This document shows positions 12,401 to 62,930 of a stretch of DNA of 64,000 bases, piece by piece. Position 1 is the stretch's first letter, and each line of letters begins with the position of its first letter. A model generated the notes under the pieces. It was not told the DNA's origin. It ran no database searches and saw nothing but the letters and a program-made list of their open reading frames with translations. The translations under genes and the position numbers were made by a program. Origin of the DNA: a virus (Duplodnaviria; Heunggongvirae; Uroviricota; Caudoviricetes); IMG/VR virus record IMGVR_UViG_3300048838_001248, positions 1 through 64,000 of that record; one strand, written 5' to 3'.

Positions 12401-13441
12401 ATGGAAACACTATTAGATAGAGACACTTTCCGTGAGTCCGTCTTCGAAAGAGACGGGCATCTTTGCGTTATCTGTGGTGAACCTGCGAAAGACGCTCACC
12501 ACATAATAGAACGCAGACTCTTTTCTAATGGTGGTTACTTTATTAATAATGGTGCAAGTCTCTGTGAAAAGCACCATATTCTTGCAGAACAAACAACACT
12601 TACTTGTGATGAAATCAGAAAAGCAGCAAAAATCGAAACAGTCGTTCTCCCCGAACACTTCTATTCGGACGTTGAATATGATAAATGGGGGAATGAAATT
12701 CTTCGAAATGGCACAAGAATCAAAGGCGATTTATTTGATGACCCGTCAGTACAAAAAATATTAAAACAAGGAAATGTTTTAAATCTTTTTGCTGACAGGG
12801 TTAAATATCCCCGAACTTTTCATCTACCTTGGTCTCCCGGAATGAATAGGGATGATAGACAAATGACTGACGTATCAATATTTGAGGGTCAACAAGTCAT
12901 GATTTGTGAGAAACTTGATGGCGAAAACACCACATGGTATCGGGATTATATGCATGCAAGGTCTTTAGATAGTGATAGTCATCCCAGCCGTACTTGGGTT
13001 AAGAACCTCTGGGCACAACATGGTTACGAAATTCCCGAAGGTTGGCGTGTTTGTGGCGAAAATATGTATGCCAAGCATGCAATTCATTATACCAAAGAAA
13101 ATAAAAATGCACTACAAACGTATTTTTATATGTTTAGTATTTGGAACGAAAAGAATTTTTGCTTATCTTGGGACGAAACTGAAGAATGGGCAGAACTTCT
13201 CGGACTTACACTTGTACCTGTTTTTTATAAAGGTATTTGGGATATGAGTGTTATTGAAGAACTTAATAAAAGAATGGAAGGAAGTCCAAATATTGTTGAG
13301 GGTTATGTTGTTAGACTTACAAGAGAATATCATTATAGCGAATTTAGAAATGTTTGTGGAAAATATGTACGCAAGAATCACGTACAGAATAATCACGGAC
13401 ACTGGAGTACACAAAAAATAATAAAAAATGAACTTGTTTAG
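12401..13441 (+). CDS. HNH endonuclease fused to ATP-dependent RNA/polynucleotide ligase
   Basis: N-terminal HNH (C..C..HH..N..LC..HH); ligase motif I KLDGEN, motif IV EGYVVR, motif V KYVRK. Confidence 0.65.
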   Translation: METLLDRDTFRESVFERDGHLCVICGEPAKDAHHIIERRLFSNGGYFINNGASLCEKHHILAEQTTLTCDEIRKAAKIETVVLPEHFYSDVEYDKWGNEILRNGTRIKGDLFDDPSVQKILKQGNVLNLFADRVKYPRTFHLPWSPGMNRDDRQMTDVSIFEGQQVMICEKLDGENTTWYRDYMHARSLDSDSHPSRTWVKNLWAQHGYEIPEGWRVCGENMYAKHAIHYTKENKNALQTYFYMFSIWNEKNFCLSWDETEEWAELLGLTLVPVFYKGIWDMSVIEELNKRMEGSPNIVEGYVVRLTREYHYSEFRNVCGKYVRKNHVQNNHGHWSTQKIIKNELV

Positions 13442-34879: not shown

Positions 34880-37174
34880 TTATAGCACCATCACTTTATT
34901 TAAAATGTCATACAGGGTATCATTTGCATTCTCCATGCTCCAAGGCAGATTAAGATAAGACAAGATTTTCTGATTATTGACCTGTAAATCCTGTATTTCT
35001 TTCATTAAACGCAATATGCGTTTCTGTTCAGGGGTCTGCTTAATATTGGTCAGGTCAAAATGTCTCGAAAGTTCTGATTTCATGTAACCAACATCCTTTT
35101 TACTTGAAGGTAGATTTTCAATGTAGGTTTTAATTTCGTCAACCTTTGCCTGATATTTGGGAGCATTGAGTTTTGAATAGTTAACATCTTTATAGAAGTT
35201 AGTAATACTATCCCACTGCTCGGACATTCCATGTGTCTGAAAATAGGACATTATGAAGTCAGTTTTTCTGTAAAGCATTTTGTTGTAAAACTGGCTGACA
35301 TGATATGCTTTCTTGCAGTACTCAAAGTACTTTACATTACCCTGTGCAACCATGATAAACATAATGCTATTCTTTTCCTTGCCGGAATAACCATTATTGA
35401 ATTTACCATTGTAATCAACATATCTCACAACTGCTTTGTTATCAAAGAGTTCACGAAACATATCACTTGCTCTTCTCAATTCATTTTCATTTTCCTGTGT
35501 GCCATAGAAGATAGGCATGTTATAATCGAATAACATCGACAAACTAATCCTTTCCTTACTATGACCACCTATGAATTTTACAGGTATGGTTAACTTCCTT
35601 AGTTCAGGAGACATTGATTTCTTGTTCTTCCTTGAAGCAATAAAATCTTCCGGTACTTCAAGTGTATCATAATCCTGTGCGTTTTCACGTACAATGCTAA
35701 AGTATTCTTCCTGCATGTCAATCAAAGACTGAACAAAAGCAATTGGTTTGCCGTTATCGTCTGTGGTTTTATCCATGTGTACATTAAACAGTTCGGCAAT
35801 TTCACTGCGCATCCAATTATTGGCAACATTGCGAAGTGTAACAATATGATACAGGTCATATTTATAACCTAAGTAAGCCTGTTTGATAACCTTACGGTTA
35901 AATTCATCGTTGACGTACAATAGATTTGAATTCTTTTTAAGTTCTTCGTAACCACCTTCGAATTCGTACTTTGATGATGAATACCTTGACCTTGCAGGTT
36001 TCTTGCCATAAGACTTGACTTCGAAGAAAAACTTGAACAACTGTCTGTCATTCGGCATTTTCATAAAGCTGTACCGGAAATTCGACAGGTCAACATCTGA
36101 TTGCTTAATGATGTTGCTAACGGTTAAGGACATTCCGTTTTTGAATTCCAATACACCAAAGTTGTGTTTCAGATTAAAGTAATCCTTTAAGTCAACTATG
36201 TTACTGTACTGTTTTACAAGCAGTTCTTTCACTTCTTCCTTTGCAGCTTCCAGTTTCTTTTTGAGAACCTTAATGGTTTTCTCGCTGTAATCCAGTTGTT
36301 CTCTGGAAGCAACAACACCTATGTCACCCACTTCGAGTTTCAAAGCAATAGGTAAACTGTAATCACTTGCTGATAATCCAAGCACACTATAATCAATAGG
36401 GTAAGCAACCCTACCAAGGCATACATGCATGTGATGTGAATACTCATTGCCCCTGTAAAGGAAGTTCTTTCCCCGGACAATCTGATACTCATTTGAGAGT
36501 GTTTGACCATTGTAATAGTCATCTTCAAAACCTTCAAAGACAACATTTTCAAAGTAGTACAATTGCTTTACCATTTCTTTGGAGAAGCTATTCAGGTCTT
36601 TTTCCAGTACTGGTATACGGATTTCAGTACCATTGCGTTCTGTTGTTGCTTCACTATGTAACAAGCTGATTTCAGGTGCTTCCTGACCTTCATAGATACA
36701 GTAATAATAACGTGTACCATTGAAGTTGGTAATAACATAAAAGCTGTTATCGTATTCACCTTCACCATGACCAGTACTGCGTTTGTAAGCCAATGGAGTT
36801 TTGCCACCAATACCGAAACCACCAATCTGTGTGTTGTCGCACCTTTTTGTGCTTTCGAAGTAAACACCATAGATGTTTTCAACCCTGTCAGGAGACATAC
36901 CAACACCATAATCAATGAATGATATATATATGGTATCGGTTTGTGGGTCTTTGGATTTCTTAATGACAACCGGAGAATTCACCTGTGCTTCGACATGTGA
37001 ATCAAAACAGTTACTGGTAATCTCACGGACAACCGTACCTATAGGATTACTGTAAATGTTTTTGGTAAAAAGCTGAAATACCATTGAGGTAGCATTCTCT
37101 GATAAGCGCATTTTCTTTGCACCTGTACTGGCTTCTGTTGCCTGTGTCGAGAGTTGTTTCAAGTTGATTTCCAT
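34880..37174 (-). CDS. rIIA: rIIA-like protein (GHKL ATPase)
   Basis: N box EITSNCFDS, G1 IDYGVGMS, G2 GGFGIGGK match T4 rIIA (ELITNMIDA / RDFGPGMS / GGFGLGSK); 764 aa. Confidence 0.8.
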   Translation of the reverse strand: MEINLKQLSTQATEASTGAKKMRLSENATSMVFQLFTKNIYSNPIGTVVREITSNCFDSHVEAQVNSPVVIKKSKDPQTDTIYISFIDYGVGMSPDRVENIYGVYFESTKRCDNTQIGGFGIGGKTPLAYKRSTGHGEGEYDNSFYVITNFNGTRYYYCIYEGQEAPEISLLHSEATTERNGTEIRIPVLEKDLNSFSKEMVKQLYYFENVVFEGFEDDYYNGQTLSNEYQIVRGKNFLYRGNEYSHHMHVCLGRVAYPIDYSVLGLSASDYSLPIALKLEVGDIGVVASREQLDYSEKTIKVLKKKLEAAKEEVKELLVKQYSNIVDLKDYFNLKHNFGVLEFKNGMSLTVSNIIKQSDVDLSNFRYSFMKMPNDRQLFKFFFEVKSYGKKPARSRYSSSKYEFEGGYEELKKNSNLLYVNDEFNRKVIKQAYLGYKYDLYHIVTLRNVANNWMRSEIAELFNVHMDKTTDDNGKPIAFVQSLIDMQEEYFSIVRENAQDYDTLEVPEDFIASRKNKKSMSPELRKLTIPVKFIGGHSKERISLSMLFDYNMPIFYGTQENENELRRASDMFRELFDNKAVVRYVDYNGKFNNGYSGKEKNSIMFIMVAQGNVKYFEYCKKAYHVSQFYNKMLYRKTDFIMSYFQTHGMSEQWDSITNFYKDVNYSKLNAPKYQAKVDEIKTYIENLPSSKKDVGYMKSELSRHFDLTNIKQTPEQKRILRLMKEIQDLQVNNQKILSYLNLPWSMENANDTLYDILNKVMVL

Positions 37175-37219: not shown

Positions 37220-37250
37220 ATTATACGGAATATATTTGAAATGGTTACAA
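37220..37250 (-). promoter_or_regulatory. phage promoter for rIIA
   Basis: ATTGTGTTTCTCTATGCAATTATACG block shared with rIIB. Confidence 0.6.
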
Positions 37251-37335
37251 AATTATTCAATTATTTTTACTTTGCTTTTAAATAAAATTGTTGAGTTTTC
37301 AATCATGCTATTGTTTTTAAATAAAATCATATTGA

Positions 37336-37366
37336 GTTATACGTTTGAGTTGAAGTAAGGTTACAA
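37336..37366 (-). promoter_or_regulatory. phage-type promoter with no gene (about 70-nt transcript?)
   Basis: GTTATACG-N16-GTTACAA. Confidence 0.4.
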
Positions 37367-37375
37367 TCAGGGTCT

Positions 37376-37480
37376 TATTTAGACTGATTCTAACATCAGG
37401 ATATAAGGTAGGTTGGAGTCCACTTGGTTTCAGGTGGTGTGCCTGTTACAACTATTGGCTTATGTGGGTTATACATTCAT
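37376..37480 (-). ncRNA. candidate small RNA, family copy 1
   Basis: Core TTTAGA-N-TCTAAA hairpin plus TCAGGATATAAGGTAGGTTGGAGTC, directly downstream of its own promoter 37487-37517; no ORF. Confidence 0.4.
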
Positions 37481-37486
37481 ATATTT

Positions 37487-37517
37487 ATTATACGGATTCA
37501 GATTAAAATGGTTACAA
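37487..37517 (-). promoter_or_regulatory. phage promoter of sRNA copy 1
   Basis: ATTATACG-N16-GTTACAA. Confidence 0.55.
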
Positions 37518-37560: not shown

Positions 37561-37598
37561 AAAAAATCCCCTGCCGTTCTGGTTAAACGGAACAGGGG
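37561..37598 (-). terminator. intrinsic terminator (repeat copy A)
   Basis: CCCCTGCCGTTCTGGTTAAACGGAACAGGGG with T6 on minus. Confidence 0.55.
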
Positions 37599-41682: not shown

Positions 41683-42513
41683 TTATGCTACTTCCAGTTC
41701 TTGTACATTGATGTATTCAGCACTGTTATTAACATCATTAGGTTGGATAACGAACACTGAATTAAGTACTTGCTTTTCAGCTTCTCGGTTTGCTATGCGT
41801 TTCCATTTCAGACCTACAATCACACCGTTTGCATCTGCAACCCTGTAGTCTGTTAAGTCACCGTTAACAACCTTATAACCTTTGTACAATGCAGGTAGTT
41901 GTTTTTCATTCTTAACATTGAATACCATTGCAATATTGTGTCCGGCTTCAAGAACTGCTTCACATAGTTCCCAATTACGACCTGTGTATGAGAGTGTTAA
42001 ATGATAGTTCGAAGGCTTGTTGTTGAATTTCAGGGGATTTTTGGTATAATCGTAAAACTGAACATCAGGAAAGATTTCGAAGATATTCTTATTGTCAACT
42101 CTTACATTCTGCCAGTCAACATCAGAGGTACAATTCAAACGAACGCTGAAATAAAAACCTTCTGCCTGTGCTTTGGCTTTGGCAACATTGATTTCAGCTA
42201 TAAGCCATGCCATAAAAAATTCAGGTTTTTCATAAAGCATACGAGTTTTTTTGCTTCTGCTGTCCTGTGTTTTGGTCTTACCTGCAAGAATTTCCATTCC
42301 TGCCCTGCCACTTGTATTAAGGCAACCCATTCTGCATTCCGGTGTACTGAAAGCACAAGTATTATAACCACTTGTACGTGCCGGAGCAAGATATAAACCA
42401 TATGTATGTTGGTTAACCTTGCCGTTTTTTGCGAGTTTTGCACTTGCATTGACTTTACCTAAGTAAGATAAGCCAGTCTGTTTCATTGCTTTGCCGATTG
42501 TTGTAAATGTCAT
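41683..42513 (-). CDS. hypothetical protein (Cys cluster CAFSTPECRMGC)
   Basis: 276-aa ORF. Confidence 0.55.
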   Translation of the reverse strand: MTFTTIGKAMKQTGLSYLGKVNASAKLAKNGKVNQHTYGLYLAPARTSGYNTCAFSTPECRMGCLNTSGRAGMEILAGKTKTQDSRSKKTRMLYEKPEFFMAWLIAEINVAKAKAQAEGFYFSVRLNCTSDVDWQNVRVDNKNIFEIFPDVQFYDYTKNPLKFNNKPSNYHLTLSYTGRNWELCEAVLEAGHNIAMVFNVKNEKQLPALYKGYKVVNGDLTDYRVADANGVIVGLKWKRIANREAEKQVLNSVFVIQPNDVNNSAEYINVQELEVA

Positions 42514-42541: not shown

Positions 42542-42572
42542 ATTATACGGAAATAAATAGTTTTTGTTACAA
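42542..42572 (-). promoter_or_regulatory. phage promoter (minus)
   Basis: ATTATACG-N16-GTTACAA. Confidence 0.55.
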
Positions 42573-42752
42573 TTTAGCTATAGATAATCCAACCATTTCT
42601 TTACTCCATTTATCTGCAGGGTGTTCACCTGTATGGTCATAATAAATACCACATACTTTACATACAAGTGCCGAATAACCCAAACAACCGTCATAGGCTT
42701 TTGCTTTTTTGGGGTCTGTGTTTCCACAACTGCAAGTGAATTTCGTTATCAT
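42567..42752 (-). CDS. zinc-finger protein
   Basis: CSCG...CKVCG. Confidence 0.45.
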   Translation of the reverse strand: MITKFTCSCGNTDPKKAKAYDGCLGYSALVCKVCGIYYDHTGEHPADKWSKEMVGLSIAKL

Positions 42753-42776: not shown

Positions 42777-42807
42777 ATTATACGGATTTTAATTAAAATG
42801 GTTACAG
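42777..42807 (-). promoter_or_regulatory. phage promoter (minus)
   Basis: Spacer contains TTTTAATTAAAA. Confidence 0.55.
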
Positions 42808-42873
42808 TCCTACACGATAAACTGCATGATAAATTGCATTAAAAATGTTACAATTTTGGTAGTAATACTACCT

Positions 42874-42946
42874 AATTTAGAATAATTCTAAAGTCAGAGT
42901 ATAAGGTAGGGTCGGATTACTGCACCCAAGTTTTACCCTGCCTACT
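42874..42946 (-). ncRNA. candidate small RNA, family copy 2
   Basis: Same core as copy 1 (AATTTAGAATAATTCTAAAGTCAGAGTATAAGGTAGGGTCGGAT); own promoter 42948-42978. Confidence 0.4.
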
Positions 42947-42947
42947 T

Positions 42948-42978
42948 ATTATACGGATTTTAATTAAAATGGTTACAA
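42948..42978 (-). promoter_or_regulatory. phage promoter of sRNA copy 2
   Basis: Spacer contains TTTTAATTAAAA. Confidence 0.55.
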
Positions 42979-43002
42979 AAAAAGTGGTCGAAATTGACCA
43001 CT
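42977..43002 (-). terminator. intrinsic terminator fused to the promoter -35
   Basis: AGTGGTCGAAATTGACCACT with T6 on minus running into TTGTAAC. Confidence 0.5.
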
Positions 43003-43013
43003 TTAATTAAAAG

Positions 43014-43896: not shown

Positions 43897-43934
43897 ATTA
43901 TACGAAAAAACCCCTGAATTGTTACACTCAGGGG
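43897..43934 (-). promoter_or_regulatory. fused terminator-promoter cassette
   Basis: Hairpin CCCCTGAATTGTTACACTCAGGGG contains the -35. Confidence 0.55.
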
Positions 43935-43942
43935 TTTGCATC

Positions 43943-47674: not shown

Positions 47675-47719
47675 AAAAAAGGGGTGAACATTCACCCCTT
47701 TTATATCTCAGTACATTGG

Positions 47720-48610
47720 TTATGCATTGGCAAGCAAGTACTCAAATACTTTGCTGTCGGTTTCCATTCGGGTTTCCGGTGCAGCTATGGTTCTGTCGCT
47801 GAACATATATTGGTTTATTCCGTTATATATCAGCCAGTCATTTACCTTACCGTTGTAACCAAGTGATGCGTTCTGTGCTTCGGTCATTATCCGGTTGGTT
47901 ATGTCATTCAGGGTGTTGAACTTTGAAGTGTCAACCATTGCTATCTTTGTAGCTTTCAGTACCTCAGTAAGCCTGTCCTGAACATTCTCAACCCATCTGC
48001 CACCAAGCATTTCGTACTTTGCAGTCAGAGCGTTGGTTATCTCTTTTGCGTTCTCGCCAAAGTTCTGCAACATTGTGTCAAGTTCGTCAAAGCTATGCAG
48101 AATTTGTTCTGTGTGCTTACCAACAATTGCAAGATTGAATTCCTTCATTTCTTCAACTGCGATAACAAGACCATTGGAGCAAACCAAACGGAAGTAACCA
48201 AACACAATCCGGTATTTGGTAAGACCGTTGTAACTGTGCTGAACTCTGAGCATTGGCTGAATAACGTCATTACTACCTTTCATTTTGTAGCCATAACGCT
48301 TGTCATCAATAGCATAGTCAGCATAAAACCTGACGTTGTTGATATGCTTGTACTCAGGGGTGAAATTAATCCTGTGTGCATTCAACACGTTTTCAATCTG
48401 CGGGAAAATGTTAGCATTCGGTACAAGTGCGTACCTGTCAGAGCAGTAGTTCAAATCCATTTCCTGACCACCAATGACACCTGTTACAACCTTGCAATAC
48501 TCAGGGTTGGTGTTTCTTGGGTTGTCAATCAATTCGACCGGGAAAAGCAAGTCATTCAGACTGCAAATCTTGGTTTCGGCTTTTTGTTTTTTTTCAGTTG
48601 CTGTTTCCAT
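47720..48610 (-). CDS. DUF932-like phage/plasmid protein
   Basis: HSYNGLTKYRIVFGYFRLVCSNGLV resembles the DUF932 signature. Confidence 0.45.
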   Translation of the reverse strand: METATEKKQKAETKICSLNDLLFPVELIDNPRNTNPEYCKVVTGVIGGQEMDLNYCSDRYALVPNANIFPQIENVLNAHRINFTPEYKHINNVRFYADYAIDDKRYGYKMKGSNDVIQPMLRVQHSYNGLTKYRIVFGYFRLVCSNGLVIAVEEMKEFNLAIVGKHTEQILHSFDELDTMLQNFGENAKEITNALTAKYEMLGGRWVENVQDRLTEVLKATKIAMVDTSKFNTLNDITNRIMTEAQNASLGYNGKVNDWLIYNGINQYMFSDRTIAAPETRMETDSKVFEYLLANA

Positions 48611-48635: not shown

Positions 48636-48666
48636 ATTATACGGACTTTAATTAAAAAGGTTACAC
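48636..48666 (-). promoter_or_regulatory. phage promoter (minus)
   Basis: ATTATACG-N16-GTTACAC. Confidence 0.55.
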
Positions 48667-48708: not shown

Positions 48709-48796
48709 TATTTAGACTAAATCTAAACTCAGGATATAAGGTAGGTTGGAGTCTACCCTCTGCGCACCTTCGGAGTGCGAACCTCCTTTCTTTACT
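48709..48796 (-). ncRNA. candidate small RNA, family copy 3
   Basis: TATTTAGACTAAATCTAAACTCAGGATATAAGGTAGGTTGGAGTC core plus UUCG-type hairpin; own promoter 48798-48828. Confidence 0.4.
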
Positions 48797-48797
48797 T

Positions 48798-48828
48798 ATT
48801 ATACGGTTTTTAATTAAAAAGGTTACAA
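48798..48828 (-). promoter_or_regulatory. phage promoter of sRNA copy 3
   Basis: ATTATACG-N16-GTTACAA. Confidence 0.55.
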
Positions 48829-48848: not shown

Positions 48849-48887
48849 TAAAAAAACCCCTGCCGTTCTGGTTAAACGGTTCAGGGG
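48849..48887 (-). terminator. intrinsic terminator (repeat copy B)
   Basis: Near-identical hairpin with T7 on minus. Confidence 0.55.
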
Positions 48888-48927
48888 CATTACCAACAAA
48901 GATATGAAACAACGCAACAACTATATT

Positions 48928-52469: not shown

Positions 52470-53024
52470 TTATGCGTTCACTAACTGTGCCTGTAACATT
52501 GTTCTGCACCTGTTTATCATTCCTTTGACAGTTCCAAGCGGTACATTGCAAATCTCTGCAATTTCGCTATATTCTTTTTCATGCATAAAATACAGGTTTG
52601 CAATACGTCTGTATTTAGGTTTCAGACTTGCAAATGCTTTCAAAATTGCTTCCCTTAGTTCTCTGTTGTTTGAAACATCATTGCCGTCAGTACCAACAAA
52701 TTCAAACATTTCTTTTCCGGTTTCATCAACAAAATCAGAAACATGAACATCTGTTGCATGGTATTTGTTTGCCCTGAAAAAATCAATAACTGCATTGTTA
52801 GCAATAAAATGTAACCATGTAGTCATTTTTGATACACTTTCATTATACTTGTCAAAGTGTTTGTATGCGTTAACAAATACCTTTGCTGTTATATCCTCTG
52901 CATCATTGATATTGTTAACTTTCGTATTTACATAGTGCAAAATTTGATTGTAAAACTTTGCGTAAACCTGATTAAAATTCATTGTTTCAGTCGTTTTCAT
53001 ATCTTTGCGTTTTAAGTTAAACAT
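52470..53024 (-). CDS. ECF-type sigma-70 family RNA polymerase sigma factor
   Basis: Region 2 DAEDITAKVFVNAYKHFDKY..TWLHFIANNAVIDFFR; region 4 YRRIANLYFMHEKEYSEIAEICNVPLGTVKGMINRCR. Track start is GTG at 53033; ATG at 53024 is more likely. Confidence 0.75.
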   Translation of the reverse strand: MFNLKRKDMKTTETMNFNQVYAKFYNQILHYVNTKVNNINDAEDITAKVFVNAYKHFDKYNESVSKMTTWLHFIANNAVIDFFRANKYHATDVHVSDFVDETGKEMFEFVGTDGNDVSNNRELREAILKAFASLKPKYRRIANLYFMHEKEYSEIAEICNVPLGTVKGMINRCRTMLQAQLVNA

Positions 53025-53037
53025 ATAATTCACGTAT

Positions 53038-53063
53038 CAAATGTACTATATTTAACGTTACAA
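53038..53063 (-). promoter_or_regulatory. promoter region of sigma factor gene (host-type -7 box overlapping a degenerate phage-type motif)
   Basis: Minus strand TTTGTTTGTAACG..TACATTTG-ATAC-GTG: TAcaTTTG -7 box plus upstream TTTG; the phage-like -10 is degenerate (TACGTGAATTAT). Confidence 0.4.
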
Positions 53064-53236
53064 ACAAACAAAAGTTTCATTATTTTGTATCAAAGTTACA
53101 AAGTTACCCTAATTTATATTCATTCTAAATAAGCCAATACTATACCATATATATAGGAATTATTTTTATTCATAACTTGCTGATAATCAGAACAGAATAA
53201 AATAAATGCAATTTTAATTAAAAATAGTGTACCCAA

Positions 53237-53296: not shown

Positions 53297-53866
53297 ATGG
53301 AAAACGCAAAAAAATTCTTCGGTCAGTTTGAAAACCTCAAAGGTGCTTCATTCATTGCAATTAACAAGTATTTTGCCAAAACTACGGGTGAAGTTGCTAA
53401 CCACGTTGTTAACGTCAATATTAGTGTGCAGAATGCAAAAGAAACCGATTTTAACAGGTTGAAAAATTGCAATGATAATGACGTTCAGGCAATTAGTAAG
53501 GCTTCCGGTATTGATGCTGAAACCGTTAAACTTGCACTTTCTGAAATGCTTGTAAGTGCAGAAAAAAACCTATCTGCAAACATTGAGGACAGGACAAACC
53601 AAAGCAAAGGACAGACAGATGCATATATCAATTTGACCCCTGCAATACGTCTGCATAAGGAAACCCTTGAAATTCACGTATTTGGGCAGTCAATTTCAAA
53701 GGTTGTTTTGGTCAAAGGTGAATACAAAACCGTTAACAGTTCAGCCAAAACCCTTGCAAAACAGGCAATTACCAAACACCTTGATTTGAGAGCCGGAAAA
53801 TTCAGGGACTTCATTTGTGGCAGAATTGATACCGTAAAAGTGAACGGTGAAACCATTGAGTTGTAA
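53297..53866 (+). CDS. hypothetical protein
   Basis: 189-aa ORF followed by terminator. Confidence 0.5.
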   Translation: MENAKKFFGQFENLKGASFIAINKYFAKTTGEVANHVVNVNISVQNAKETDFNRLKNCNDNDVQAISKASGIDAETVKLALSEMLVSAEKNLSANIEDRTNQSKGQTDAYINLTPAIRLHKETLEIHVFGQSISKVVLVKGEYKTVNSSAKTLAKQAITKHLDLRAGKFRDFICGRIDTVKVNGETIEL

Positions 53867-53884
53867 TTCAGAATCAGTCTAAAT

Positions 53885-53912
53885 AAGGGAGTAAAACTGC
53901 TCCCTTATTTTT
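53885..53912 (+). terminator. intrinsic terminator
   Basis: AAGGGAGTAAAACTGCTCCCTT then T-rich tail. Confidence 0.55.
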
Positions 53913-62114: not shown

Positions 62115-62210
62115 GGTGTTGTATGCCGATGATGGCAAGGCAACTTGTTGGTGAAGGGTCGAACCGAAGTACCACAAGACATCACGCTGGTTCAATTCCA
62201 GCCAGCACCA
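62115..62210 (+). tRNA. tRNA-like element (96 nt, anticodon arm not resolved)
   Basis: 7-bp acceptor GGTGTTG/CAGCACC with one G-U; D-stem TGCC/GGCA; perfect T-arm GCTGG-TTCAATT-CCAGC; discriminator A. Confidence 0.35.
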
Positions 62211-62792: not shown

Positions 62793-62865
62793 TGCGATAT
62801 GACGCAGTTGGTTAGCGTGCCCTCGCTCAAGAGGGAAGTCACGGGTTCGAATCCCGTTATCGCAA
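62793..62865 (+). tRNA. tRNA (73 nt) with non-canonical 6-nt anticodon loop GCTCAA
   Basis: Perfect 7-bp acceptor TGCGATA/TATCGCA; D-arm ACGC-AGTTGGTTA-GCGT; anticodon stem CCCTC/GAGGG; T-arm ACGGG-TTCGAAT-CCCGT; discriminator A. Confidence 0.55.
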
Positions 62866-62930
62866 CAAATTTGTTTGGGGTCTGCTTCGGCAGACAGGTG
62901 GTTTACAATTAGGATGCTTAACCTAACCCA

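What the first reader, a model, noticed from the sequence alone, without database searches (positions are those of the whole stretch)
37376..37480. Three-copy family of promoter-driven ~70-105-nt non-coding elements (candidate phage sRNAs)
Three loci share a conserved core in the same orientation: 37376-37480, 42874-42946 and 48709-48796, all on the minus strand. The core is an AT hairpin TTTAGA-N5-TCTAAA followed by TCAG(G/A)(A/G)TATAAGGTAGG(T/G)T(G/C)GGA(G/T)T. The other half is variable and GC-rich, and it contains UUCG-type hairpins in copies 1 and 3. Each copy lies directly downstream of its own perfect phage promoter (37487-37517, 42948-42978, 48798-48828) and contains no ORF. The next gene downstream has its own separate promoter. 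These look like standalone small RNA genes whose variable half could supply target specificity. That would make a regulatory sRNA family analogous in logic to, but unrelated in sequence to, known phage sRNAs.
Basis: seen in the sequence. Interest (0 to 1): 0.65.

Follow-up and report, generated by a model that had tools for sequence, protein, structure and literature searches.

The report
New small RNA family in giant phages
The three repeats are real copies of a previously undescribed family of small folded RNAs. Large phages of Bacteroidota-type bacteria express this family from their own promoters next to a few conserved early genes, and its function is still unknown.

Summary
Three same-strand copies share an exact core, and each lies between two phage promoters with no ORF.

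The promoters (TGTAAC-N16-CGTATAAT) are ECF-sigma type, and the window encodes such a sigma factor (52470-53033).

The family is large: about 70 relatives with the same layout and about 25 more distant relatives. The distant ones are driven by host-type Bacteroidota promoters and end in a U-tract terminator. No Rfam family matches.

The "variable half" is not free-form. It falls into conserved structural classes: copy 2 is type A, copy 3 type B, copy 1 type C. Their hairpins are kept by compensatory changes.

Across relatives the RNAs sit beside the same few genes (GP88-family, rIIA, DUF932). The class is not tied to the gene, and in the distant relatives the RNA gene is on the opposite strand.

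Best reading: stand-alone structured RNAs that act in trans through an invariant core (GUAGACUCCAACCUACCUUAUA). They are not antisense sRNAs with variable targeting arms. The window copies lack a terminator, so a role as a cis-acting leader is not excluded. The AT hairpin is conserved in sequence without covariation and could instead be a protein-binding or DNA site. The function is unknown.

The parts
37487..37516 (-). Promoter P1 of copy 1. ECF-sigma type: TGTAAC-N16-CGTATAAT.
   Evidence: Zero mismatches to the window consensus. It has the AAC / CGT signature and the same layout as relatives.
37376..37480 (-). RNA copy 1, class C. Variable hairpin CAGG-CACACCA-CCUG at 37431-37445, invariant core GUGGACUCCAACCUACCUUAUAU at 37401-37423, and CUGA plus the AT hairpin at 37377-37400.
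   Evidence: (E=1e-6). Class C relatives are shown.
37220..37365 (-). Region downstream of copy 1. It holds a weaker ECF-type promoter (37336-37365), a 25-codon ORF (37253-37330) and the rIIA-proximal promoter P2 (37220-37249).
42948..42977 (-). Promoter P1 of copy 2. Its 30 nt are identical to P2 at 42777-42806.
42857..42941 (-). RNA copy 2, class A. Covarying hairpin CAGG-GUAAAA-CUUG with closing G-C pair at 42922-42941, core AGUAAUCCGACCCUACCUUAUAC at 42899-42921, CUGA plus the AT hairpin at 42875-42898, and an extra 3' hairpin GGUAGUAUUACUACC at 42858-42872.
   Evidence: 100% paired; 35 double-change cells against 9.6 expected; E=3e-22.
42777..42806 (-). Promoter P2 for the 61-aa ORF (42567-42752) and the GP88-family gene (41683-42513).
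48798..48827 (-). Promoter P1 of copy 3.
48709..48791 (-). RNA copy 3, class B. Purine strand AAAGGAGGUU at 48780-48789, covarying hairpin CGCAC-UCCGAAG-GUGCG at 48763-48779, core GUAGACUCCAACCUACCUUAUAU at 48734-48756, and CUGA plus the AT hairpin at 48710-48733.
   Evidence: (E=2e-7).
48636..48665 (-). Promoter P2 for the DUF932 gene (47720-48610).
37561..37598 (-). Intrinsic terminator upstream of P1 of copy 1. It is nearly identical to the one at 48850-48888 upstream of copy 3. The equivalent for copy 2 is at 42977-43004.
52470..53033 (-). Phage-encoded ECF-type sigma factor (context). It is the probable reader of all TGTAAC-N16-CGTATAAT promoters, and it has a host-type Bacteroidota promoter upstream.
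   Evidence: Pfam Sigma70_r2 (1e-12) and r4_2 (6e-10). The same gene lies 3-7 kb upstream of DUF932 in relatives. Upstream sequence.
34880..37174 (-). rIIA-like gene (context), one of three conserved genes that the RNA family precedes. The other two are GP88-family 41683-42513 and DUF932 47720-48610.

Best explanation
The three loci are paralogous genes for small structured non-coding RNAs of a family not yet described. Host RNA polymerase carrying the phage's own ECF-type sigma factor transcribes them early in infection.

Each RNA has a class-specific 5' domain made of one or two hairpins. This is followed by an almost invariant core, (G)UAGACUCC/GUAAUCC-NNN-CCUACCUUAUA. Part of the core can pair with a purine-rich 5' strand to close a three-way junction. 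In this phage lineage the RNA then carries a 3' module: CUGAG, the hairpin UUUAGA-N5-UCUAAA, and AUAAG.

I infer that the RNAs act in trans as folded RNAs. The invariant core would be the contact surface for a conserved partner, either a protein or a conserved host RNA. The class-specific hairpins would be scaffold.

- **Shown:** the family exists, its extent, the promoter type, the covariation of the hairpins, the conserved neighbourhood, and the terminator-ended relatives.
- **Inferred:** the exact 5' and 3' ends in this window, action in trans, and the nature of the partner.
For: - **Own promoter.** Of 68 relatives with enough upstream sequence, 54 have an ECF-type promoter upstream. The window encodes the sigma factor.
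- **Structure.** Class A hairpin plus closing pair: 100% paired, 35 double-change cells against 9.6 in shuffles (0/500), and the slid controls collapse. Class B hairpin: 14 double-change cells against 4.5 (0/500). The hairpin is retained with very different sequences in 21 of 22 distant relatives. G-U pairs fix the strand.
- **Stand-alone genes in distant relatives.** They have a canonical Bacteroidota promoter (TTTG...TAnnTTTG). A 65-80 nt RNA ends ...CCUACCUUAUAUUUUUUUU. They lie on the strand opposite to their neighbours.
- **U-run ends within the window's lineage.** Some copies in the same lineage as the window also end in a U-run instead of the AT hairpin.
- **Class and gene are uncoupled.** The RNA class is independent of the downstream gene.
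- **Multi-copy.** There are 3 copies here and up to 6 within 12 kb of one relative.
- **No coding potential** and no Rfam family.
Against: - No terminator separates the window copies from the next promoter, so discrete 3' ends are not shown.
- In the window's lineage every copy is in the sense orientation directly upstream of a gene. The AT hairpin and the next -35 box are separated by a modal fixed spacing of 12-13 nt as counted. That fits a cis or DNA-level role.
- The AT hairpin shows point mutations without compensation.
- No partner or target was identified.
- Transcription start sites are inferred from promoter geometry only.
Confidence: 0.5

Rival explanations
1. The element is a cis-acting 5' leader cassette. 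Transcripts started at P1 carry the folded RNA and continue into the downstream early gene (GP88, rIIA or DUF932). The fold would modify polymerase (processive antitermination, as with put or nut), stabilise the mRNA, or act as a processing or insulator element. P2 would supply unmodified transcripts.
For: - No terminator lies after the window copies.
- The slots in front of the same three gene families are conserved.
- One relative has six P1-RNA-P2-gene cassettes.
- Many genes in the window are followed by a terminator hairpin that wraps the next -35 box, so antitermination would have something to act on.
Against: - Distant relatives carry the RNA on the opposite strand with its own terminator, next to the same DUF932 gene.
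- Some same-lineage copies end in a U-run.
- A second promoter almost always intervenes.
- The RNA class is not tied to the gene.
Confidence: 0.2
2. The 3' module is a DNA-level site, not RNA. The perfect palindrome TTTAGA-N5-TCTAAA would be an operator or activator site for a dimeric phage regulator of the adjacent promoter P2. It merely abuts the RNA gene.
For: - The half-sites are conserved in sequence, the 5-nt spacer varies, and mutations are not compensated.
- The modal spacing to the next -35 box is 12-13 nt as counted, in 26 of 51 cases.
- The module is absent from the distant relatives that use host promoters.
- Similar AT palindromes lie upstream of the sigma gene, at 53108-53130, and at 53865-53885.
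Against: - Spacing classes of about 22-24 and 43-46 nt also occur, not all in helical phase.
- It explains only about 20 nt and none of the covarying 5' domain or the invariant core.
- The palindrome was part of the search pattern, so its invariance is partly an ascertainment effect.
Confidence: 0.15
3. One reading: the RNAs are base-pairing regulatory sRNAs. The variable half would be an antisense targeting arm and the conserved half a scaffold.
For: - Own promoters, a multi-copy family, and a variable 5' half.
Against: - The variable halves are structured hairpins kept by compensatory change.
- They fall into a few classes shared by many phages.
- Six copies in one phage have nearly identical 5' domains.
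- No enrichment of complementary sites was found in the window.
Confidence: 0.07
4. The element is a selfish or neutral repeated promoter cassette. It would spread by recombination between the very similar promoters and have no RNA function.
For: - The flanking P1 and P2 are identical in copy 2.
- One relative has a 36-nt identical P1/P2 pair around the insert.
- Copy number varies between phages.
Against: - There are compensatory substitutions in several helices.
- The core is almost invariant across phages that use different promoter systems.
- The neighbourhood with DUF932 is conserved in either orientation.
Confidence: 0.05

Closest known systems
Multicopy ('sibling') small RNA families, and phage-encoded sRNAs in general
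   Same: Several paralogous, promoter-driven genes of about 70-100 nt per genome share a conserved block. Distant relatives end in an intrinsic terminator.
   Different: The conserved block is not an obvious single-stranded seed with detectable targets. The non-conserved part is structured and falls into classes. No sequence or covariance-model similarity exists to any Rfam family.
Phage T4 small stable RNAs C and D (species 1 and 2) (from my own knowledge, not tested)
   Same: They are small structured RNAs of unknown function, encoded by a large lytic phage that also carries rIIA/rIIB and RNA ligase. In some relatives the new RNAs lie within a few kb of tRNA genes.
   Different: The T4 RNAs are processed from the tRNA cluster transcript. 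The RNAs here have their own promoters and lie beside DUF932, GP88 and rIIA. No sequence relationship was tested.
Lambda nut (boxA-boxB) and HK022 put antitermination RNAs
   Same: A short structured RNA lies immediately downstream of an early promoter, with a conserved linear motif next to a small hairpin. The genome is rich in intrinsic terminators.
   Different: A second promoter follows. Relatives carry the RNA on the opposite strand with its own terminator. No boxA consensus or N-like, Nus-dependent features were identified, and the fold is a multi-hairpin junction, not the two put stem-loops.
phi29 pRNA
   Same: It is a phage RNA of roughly 100 nt with a three-way-junction architecture, whose 5' and 3' strands pair. 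It is transcribed from its own early promoter and conserved in structure more than in sequence.
   Different: pRNA is single-copy and belongs to small podoviruses with protein-primed genomes. Its model is in Rfam and gave no match. The family here is multi-copy and has an invariant linear core.
ECF-sigma promoters (for example B. subtilis sigma-W or sigma-X type, TGAAAC/TGTAAC-N16-17-CGTA)
   Same: The promoters that drive the RNAs have the AAC -35 box, a 16-nt spacer and a CGT -10 box. An ECF-type sigma gene is encoded in the window.
   Different: The sigma factor is phage-encoded. The promoters carry an extended CGTATAAT -10 box and often sit inside a terminator hairpin.

Membership tests
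Any Rfam 15 family | Covariance-model score at or above the family gathering threshold | tested here: not met
   In the whole window only two tRNA hits appear, elsewhere. Scanning two of the elements at E<10 gives only sub-threshold noise. Ten loci of distant relatives yield only tRNAs.
tRNA / tRNA-like | Cloverleaf with T-loop and anticodon loop, detectable by ARAGORN or the Rfam tRNA model | tested here: not met
   ARAGORN calls one tRNA, at 62793-62866. No tRNA-model hit at the elements even at E<10. The resemblance (closing helix, 7-nt loops in some relatives, GACUCC/AAUCC like T-arm 3' halves) is by eye only.
Classical trans-acting bacterial sRNA gene | Own promoter | tested here: met
   Host-type promoters drive the distant relatives.
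Classical trans-acting bacterial sRNA gene | Intrinsic terminator defining the 3' end | tested here: not met
   None follows the three window copies. A terminator is present in distant relatives and in a few same-lineage copies.
Classical trans-acting bacterial sRNA gene | Single-stranded seed with complementary targets | tested here: inconclusive
   Complements of the loop or core are not enriched in the window: 19 matches against 10.4±3.5 expected, and 21 against 13.6±3.5 expected, in each case counting the elements themselves. The host genome is unknown.
nut/put-type processive antitermination RNA | Acts in cis, so it must lie in the same transcript, upstream of the genes and terminators it controls | tested here: inconclusive
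   Met geometrically in the window and its lineage. Violated in distant relatives, where the RNA is on the opposite strand with a terminator.
Hammerhead and other small self-cleaving ribozymes | Conserved catalytic core (for example CUGAUGA ... GAAA around stem II) | tested here: not met
   The sequence reads CUGAGU-[hairpin]-AUAAG. G8, A9 and the GAAA are absent. No Rfam ribozyme hit.
ECF-sigma-dependent promoter | -35 box with AAC, a spacer of about 16 nt, -10 box with CGT, and a cognate ECF sigma present | tested here: met
   There are 16 matches in the window against 0 expected. The sigma gene has Sigma70_r2 plus r4_2 and is syntenic in relatives. Recognition by this sigma factor is inferred, not shown.

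The most novel reading that the evidence does not exclude
The RNAs are the dedicated RNA partners or substrates of the conserved early proteins they always sit beside. These are DUF932 and the GP88 family. The GP88 model has a weak radical-SAM-like fold with three invariant cysteines.

Together they would form a phage ribonucleoprotein or RNA-modification module used in host takeover or anti-defence. One possibility is a decoy for an RNA-targeting host system. The invariant core CCUACCUU resembles the anti-Shine-Dalgarno tail of 16S rRNA. Some classes also carry GUAACA(A)GG-like strings that recall the 16S 3' end.
Probability: 0.12. Interest if true: 0.85.

Novelty: new variant of a known kind. 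Interest (0 to 1): 0.65.

Why it matters
Very large phages of Bacteroidota-type hosts are abundant in sediments and waters, and their early takeover programmes are almost unknown. This work gives three things.

- **A new RNA family.** It has roughly a hundred members and is supported by covariation. It has an invariant 20-nt core, which implies a conserved molecular partner.
- **A transcription scheme.** A host-type promoter drives a phage ECF sigma gene. That sigma factor then probably reads dozens of ECF-type promoters, including those of the RNAs.
- **A reproducible neighbourhood.** The RNAs sit beside DUF932, GP88 and rIIA, which gives concrete candidates for partners.

If the RNAs prove to be decoys, cofactors or regulators of takeover, they would add an RNA layer to early phage-host conflict in a phylum without Hfq and largely without Shine-Dalgarno-led translation.

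Tried and rejected
- **Rfam.** Tried at gathering and permissive thresholds on the window, on two of the elements and on distant relatives. No family matched.
- **tRNA-likeness.** ARAGORN and the tRNA model do not call the elements.
- **Close cultured relative.** Megablast against phage GenBank records found none. The rIIA-like protein is only about 22% identical to T4-type rIIA.
- **Hammerhead or other ribozyme core.** Rejected by inspection.
- **Targets.** Complements of the conserved loop (GGTTGGAGT) and core (TATAAGGTAGG) are not enriched in the window.
- **Literature.** Searches for the sequence strings and for phage or Bacteroidota structured RNAs found nothing relevant. The dCas12f-sigmaE paper was looked at and judged unrelated. 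The DUF932 literature is uninformative.
- **DUF932 versus GP88.** They are not homologous to each other. No PADLOC hits.
- **Long closing helix and the GUAG/CUAC local helix.** Both strands are nearly invariant, so covariation cannot decide between them. RNAalifold on four sequences was uninformative.
- **Covariation in the AT hairpin.** It cannot be assessed from the main set because the hairpin was in the search pattern. An unbiased sample, reached through DUF932 homologues, shows uncompensated mutations.

Full report
**1. The observation**

- Read on the minus strand, the three loci share ...(G)GACUCC/AAUCC-NNN-CCUACCUUAUA-NN-CUGA-NN-UUAGA-N5-UCUAAAU.
- The 17-mer CCTACCTTATAYYCTGA is found exactly three times in 64 kb. 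With up to 3 mismatches there are 4 matches against 0.33 expected.
- A profile HMM of the 34-nt core and a covariance model recover these three copies and no other credible copy.
- Each copy lies directly behind a perfect copy of a 30-nt promoter consensus, which occurs 16 times in the window against 0 expected.
- Each copy is followed by a further promoter before the next gene.
- Each copy is preceded by an intrinsic terminator.
- No minus-strand ORF of 40 aa or more lies within the elements.
CTTCGG is on the non-transcribed strand of copy 3, and copy 1 has no such loop.

**2. The genome and its promoters**

- The window comes from an uncultured large phage of about 35% G+C. It has no close relative among deposited phages.
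- It encodes rIIA- and rIIB-like proteins, an RNA ligase, and GP88-family and DUF932 proteins.
- The promoters have the signature of ECF sigma factors: TGTAAC (TGAAAC or TGCAAC in relatives), a 16-nt spacer, then CGTATAAT.
- The window encodes an ECF-type sigma factor at 52470-53033 (Sigma70_r2 plus r4_2). The same gene lies 3-7 kb upstream of DUF932 in relatives.
- The sigma gene itself is preceded by a host-type Bacteroidota promoter, TTTG ... TACATTTG. mRNA leaders are A-rich without Shine-Dalgarno sequences.
- So the likely order is: host polymerase makes the sigma factor, which then drives this whole minus-strand region, including the three elements. Recognition by this sigma factor is inferred, not shown.

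**3. The family**

- Pattern scans found one relative in IMG/VR with the full core (L003, on a 299-kb contig). Further IMG/VR scans and a scan of JGI metagenomes brought the total to about 70 distinct relatives. A few lie on contigs binned as bacterial MAGs that look like phage.
- Of the relatives with enough flank, 54 of 68 have an ECF-type promoter upstream and 51 of 66 have one downstream. The modal distance from the AT hairpin to the next -35 box is 12-13 nt as counted.
- A scan with the core alone (GTAGACTCCANCCTACC) uncovered a wider set of about 25 RNAs on other large phage contigs.
- These wider relatives are driven by canonical Bacteroidota promoters and end ...CCUACCUUAUAUUUUUUUU, which is an intrinsic terminator.
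- They have no CUGAG or AT-hairpin module, and they lie on the strand opposite to their neighbours.
- None of these sequences matches an Rfam family.

**4. The structure**

The 'variable half' sorts into classes that recur across many phages.

- **Class A** (copy 2): GGC-NGGG-GUAAAA-CNNG-GGUGCAGUAAUCC.
- **Class B** (copy 3): AAAGGGGUU-CGUGN...NCACG-CAGAGGGUAGACUCC.
- **Class C** (copy 1): GUAAC-AGG...CCU-GAGACCGAGUAGACUCC.
- A few minor classes also occur.

Evidence for folding:

- In 33 class A sequences the 4-bp hairpin and its closing pair are paired in every sequence. There are 35 cells changed on both sides against 9.6 in shuffles (0 of 500 shuffles reach this). The signal vanishes when partners are slid.
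- In 14 class B sequences the hairpin has 14 such cells against 4.5 (0 of 500).
- In the distant relatives the equivalent hairpin is present in 21 of 22 despite unrelated sequences. A 5' hairpin changes its closing pairs coherently: GUC/GAC, GUU/AAC, GUA/UAC.
- G-U pairs fit only the minus-strand reading.
- The core can pair with a purine-rich 5' strand. Examples are AAAGGAGGUU with AACCUACCUU in copy 3 and AUAAGUAGG with CCUACCUUAU in copy 2. A small helix GAG...CUC can also form. Together they would give a three-way junction.
- Both strands of these helices are nearly invariant, so this part remains a model.
- The AT hairpin is conserved in sequence. In an unbiased sample, reached through DUF932 homologues, it carries uncompensated changes. 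In some copies a U-run replaces it.

**5. The neighbourhood**

- I clustered the first ORFs downstream of each same-lineage element. The family occupies a few conserved slots: before GP88-family genes (25 loci), before rIIA (13) and before DUF932 (7). These are exactly the three slots filled in the window.
- The RNA class is not tied to the slot. The GP88 slot holds A 14, B 6, C 3. The rIIA slot holds A 3, B 4, C 4, other 2. The DUF932 slot holds A 5, B 2.
- One relative has six near-identical copies in 12 kb, each arranged promoter-RNA-promoter-gene.
- In the distant relatives the RNA gene again lies next to DUF932 in seven loci, convergent with it in each and also divergent in one. In one locus it lies next to a GP88 homologue, on the other strand.
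- An adjacency that survives a flip of orientation argues against a purely cis-acting leader. It argues for either a functional link with these proteins or a very stable early-region synteny.

**6. Interpretation**

- The best-supported reading is a family of stand-alone, structured small RNAs expressed early from phage-sigma promoters. They would act in trans through the invariant core, with the class-specific hairpins as scaffold.
These are the covariation, the class structure, the class/slot independence, and the lack of complementary sites.
- Three points remain open for the window copies. They lack a terminator. They are always in the sense orientation upstream of a gene. Their AT palindrome sits at a fixed distance from the next -35 box.
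- A cis-leader role, or a DNA-level role for the palindrome, is therefore not excluded. I give these 0.2 and 0.15.

**7. Comparison and novelty**

- The family works most like multicopy phage or bacterial sRNAs. It superficially recalls the orphan stable RNAs of T4, the nut and put leaders, and the three-way-junction pRNA of phi29.
- It fails every membership test that could be run (Rfam models, tRNA model, ribozyme cores).
- I rate it a new variant of a known kind: a new, widespread structured RNA family of unknown function, not a new category of system.

Noticed in passing
window 52470-53033 (-), upstream region 53034-53160: A phage-encoded ECF-type sigma factor whose own promoter is of the host Bacteroidota type (TTTG...TACATTTG). 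It explains the 16 or more TGTAAC-N16-CGTATAAT promoters in the window.
   Followed up: partly
window 43908-43937, 47677-47702, 42981-43004 (-); L003:5660-5706: Terminator hairpins are fused to promoters. The -35 box TGTAAC sits in or next to the loop of an intrinsic terminator, and the U-tract forms the promoter spacer. The result is compact terminator-promoter modules between many genes.
   Followed up: partly
window 37561-37598 and 48850-48888 (-): Two nearly identical 38-nt terminators (CCCCUG..CCGUUUAACCAGAACGG..CAGGGG plus a U-run) precede copies 1 and 3. They form a second repeated element.
   Followed up: no
window 53108-53130 and 53865-53885: These sequences resemble the AT hairpin (UUUAGA-AUGAA-UAUAAA; UUUAGA-CUGAU-UCUGAA) but lack the RNA's 5' domain. 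One lies upstream of the sigma gene and one directly after a terminator.
   Followed up: partly
window 62115-62210 (+) and 62793-62866 (+): Two odd tRNA-like genes. One is 96 nt long and is seen only by the Rfam model (33.6 bits). The other is called by ARAGORN as 'tRNA-???' with a two-base anticodon.
   Followed up: no
window 37253-37330 (-): A 25-codon ORF with its own weaker ECF-type promoter (37336-37365) lies between copy 1 and the rIIA promoter. Small ORFs of 45-65 aa also lie between the RNA and GP88 in many relatives.
   Followed up: partly
[not shown]
   Followed up: partly
window 12401-13441 (+): An RNA ligase family protein (phrog_24030) with an N-terminal HNH-like segment.
   Followed up: no
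L351:15993-16330 (+): In a relative, a non-coding stretch of about 330 nt with its own ECF-type promoter and a strong terminator lies just upstream of the GP88-slot RNA. It has no Rfam match and may be another RNA gene.
   Followed up: partly
L347:1301-12378 (+): Six near-identical copies of the RNA lie within 12 kb of one relative. At one of them the flanking promoters are an identical 36-nt direct repeat, which suggests spread by recombination between promoters.
   Followed up: partly
window, all ECF-promoter genes (e.g. 42770-42750, 48630-48612): mRNAs from these promoters start with a conserved GUAACCAA-like leader. They lack Shine-Dalgarno sequences.
   Followed up: no
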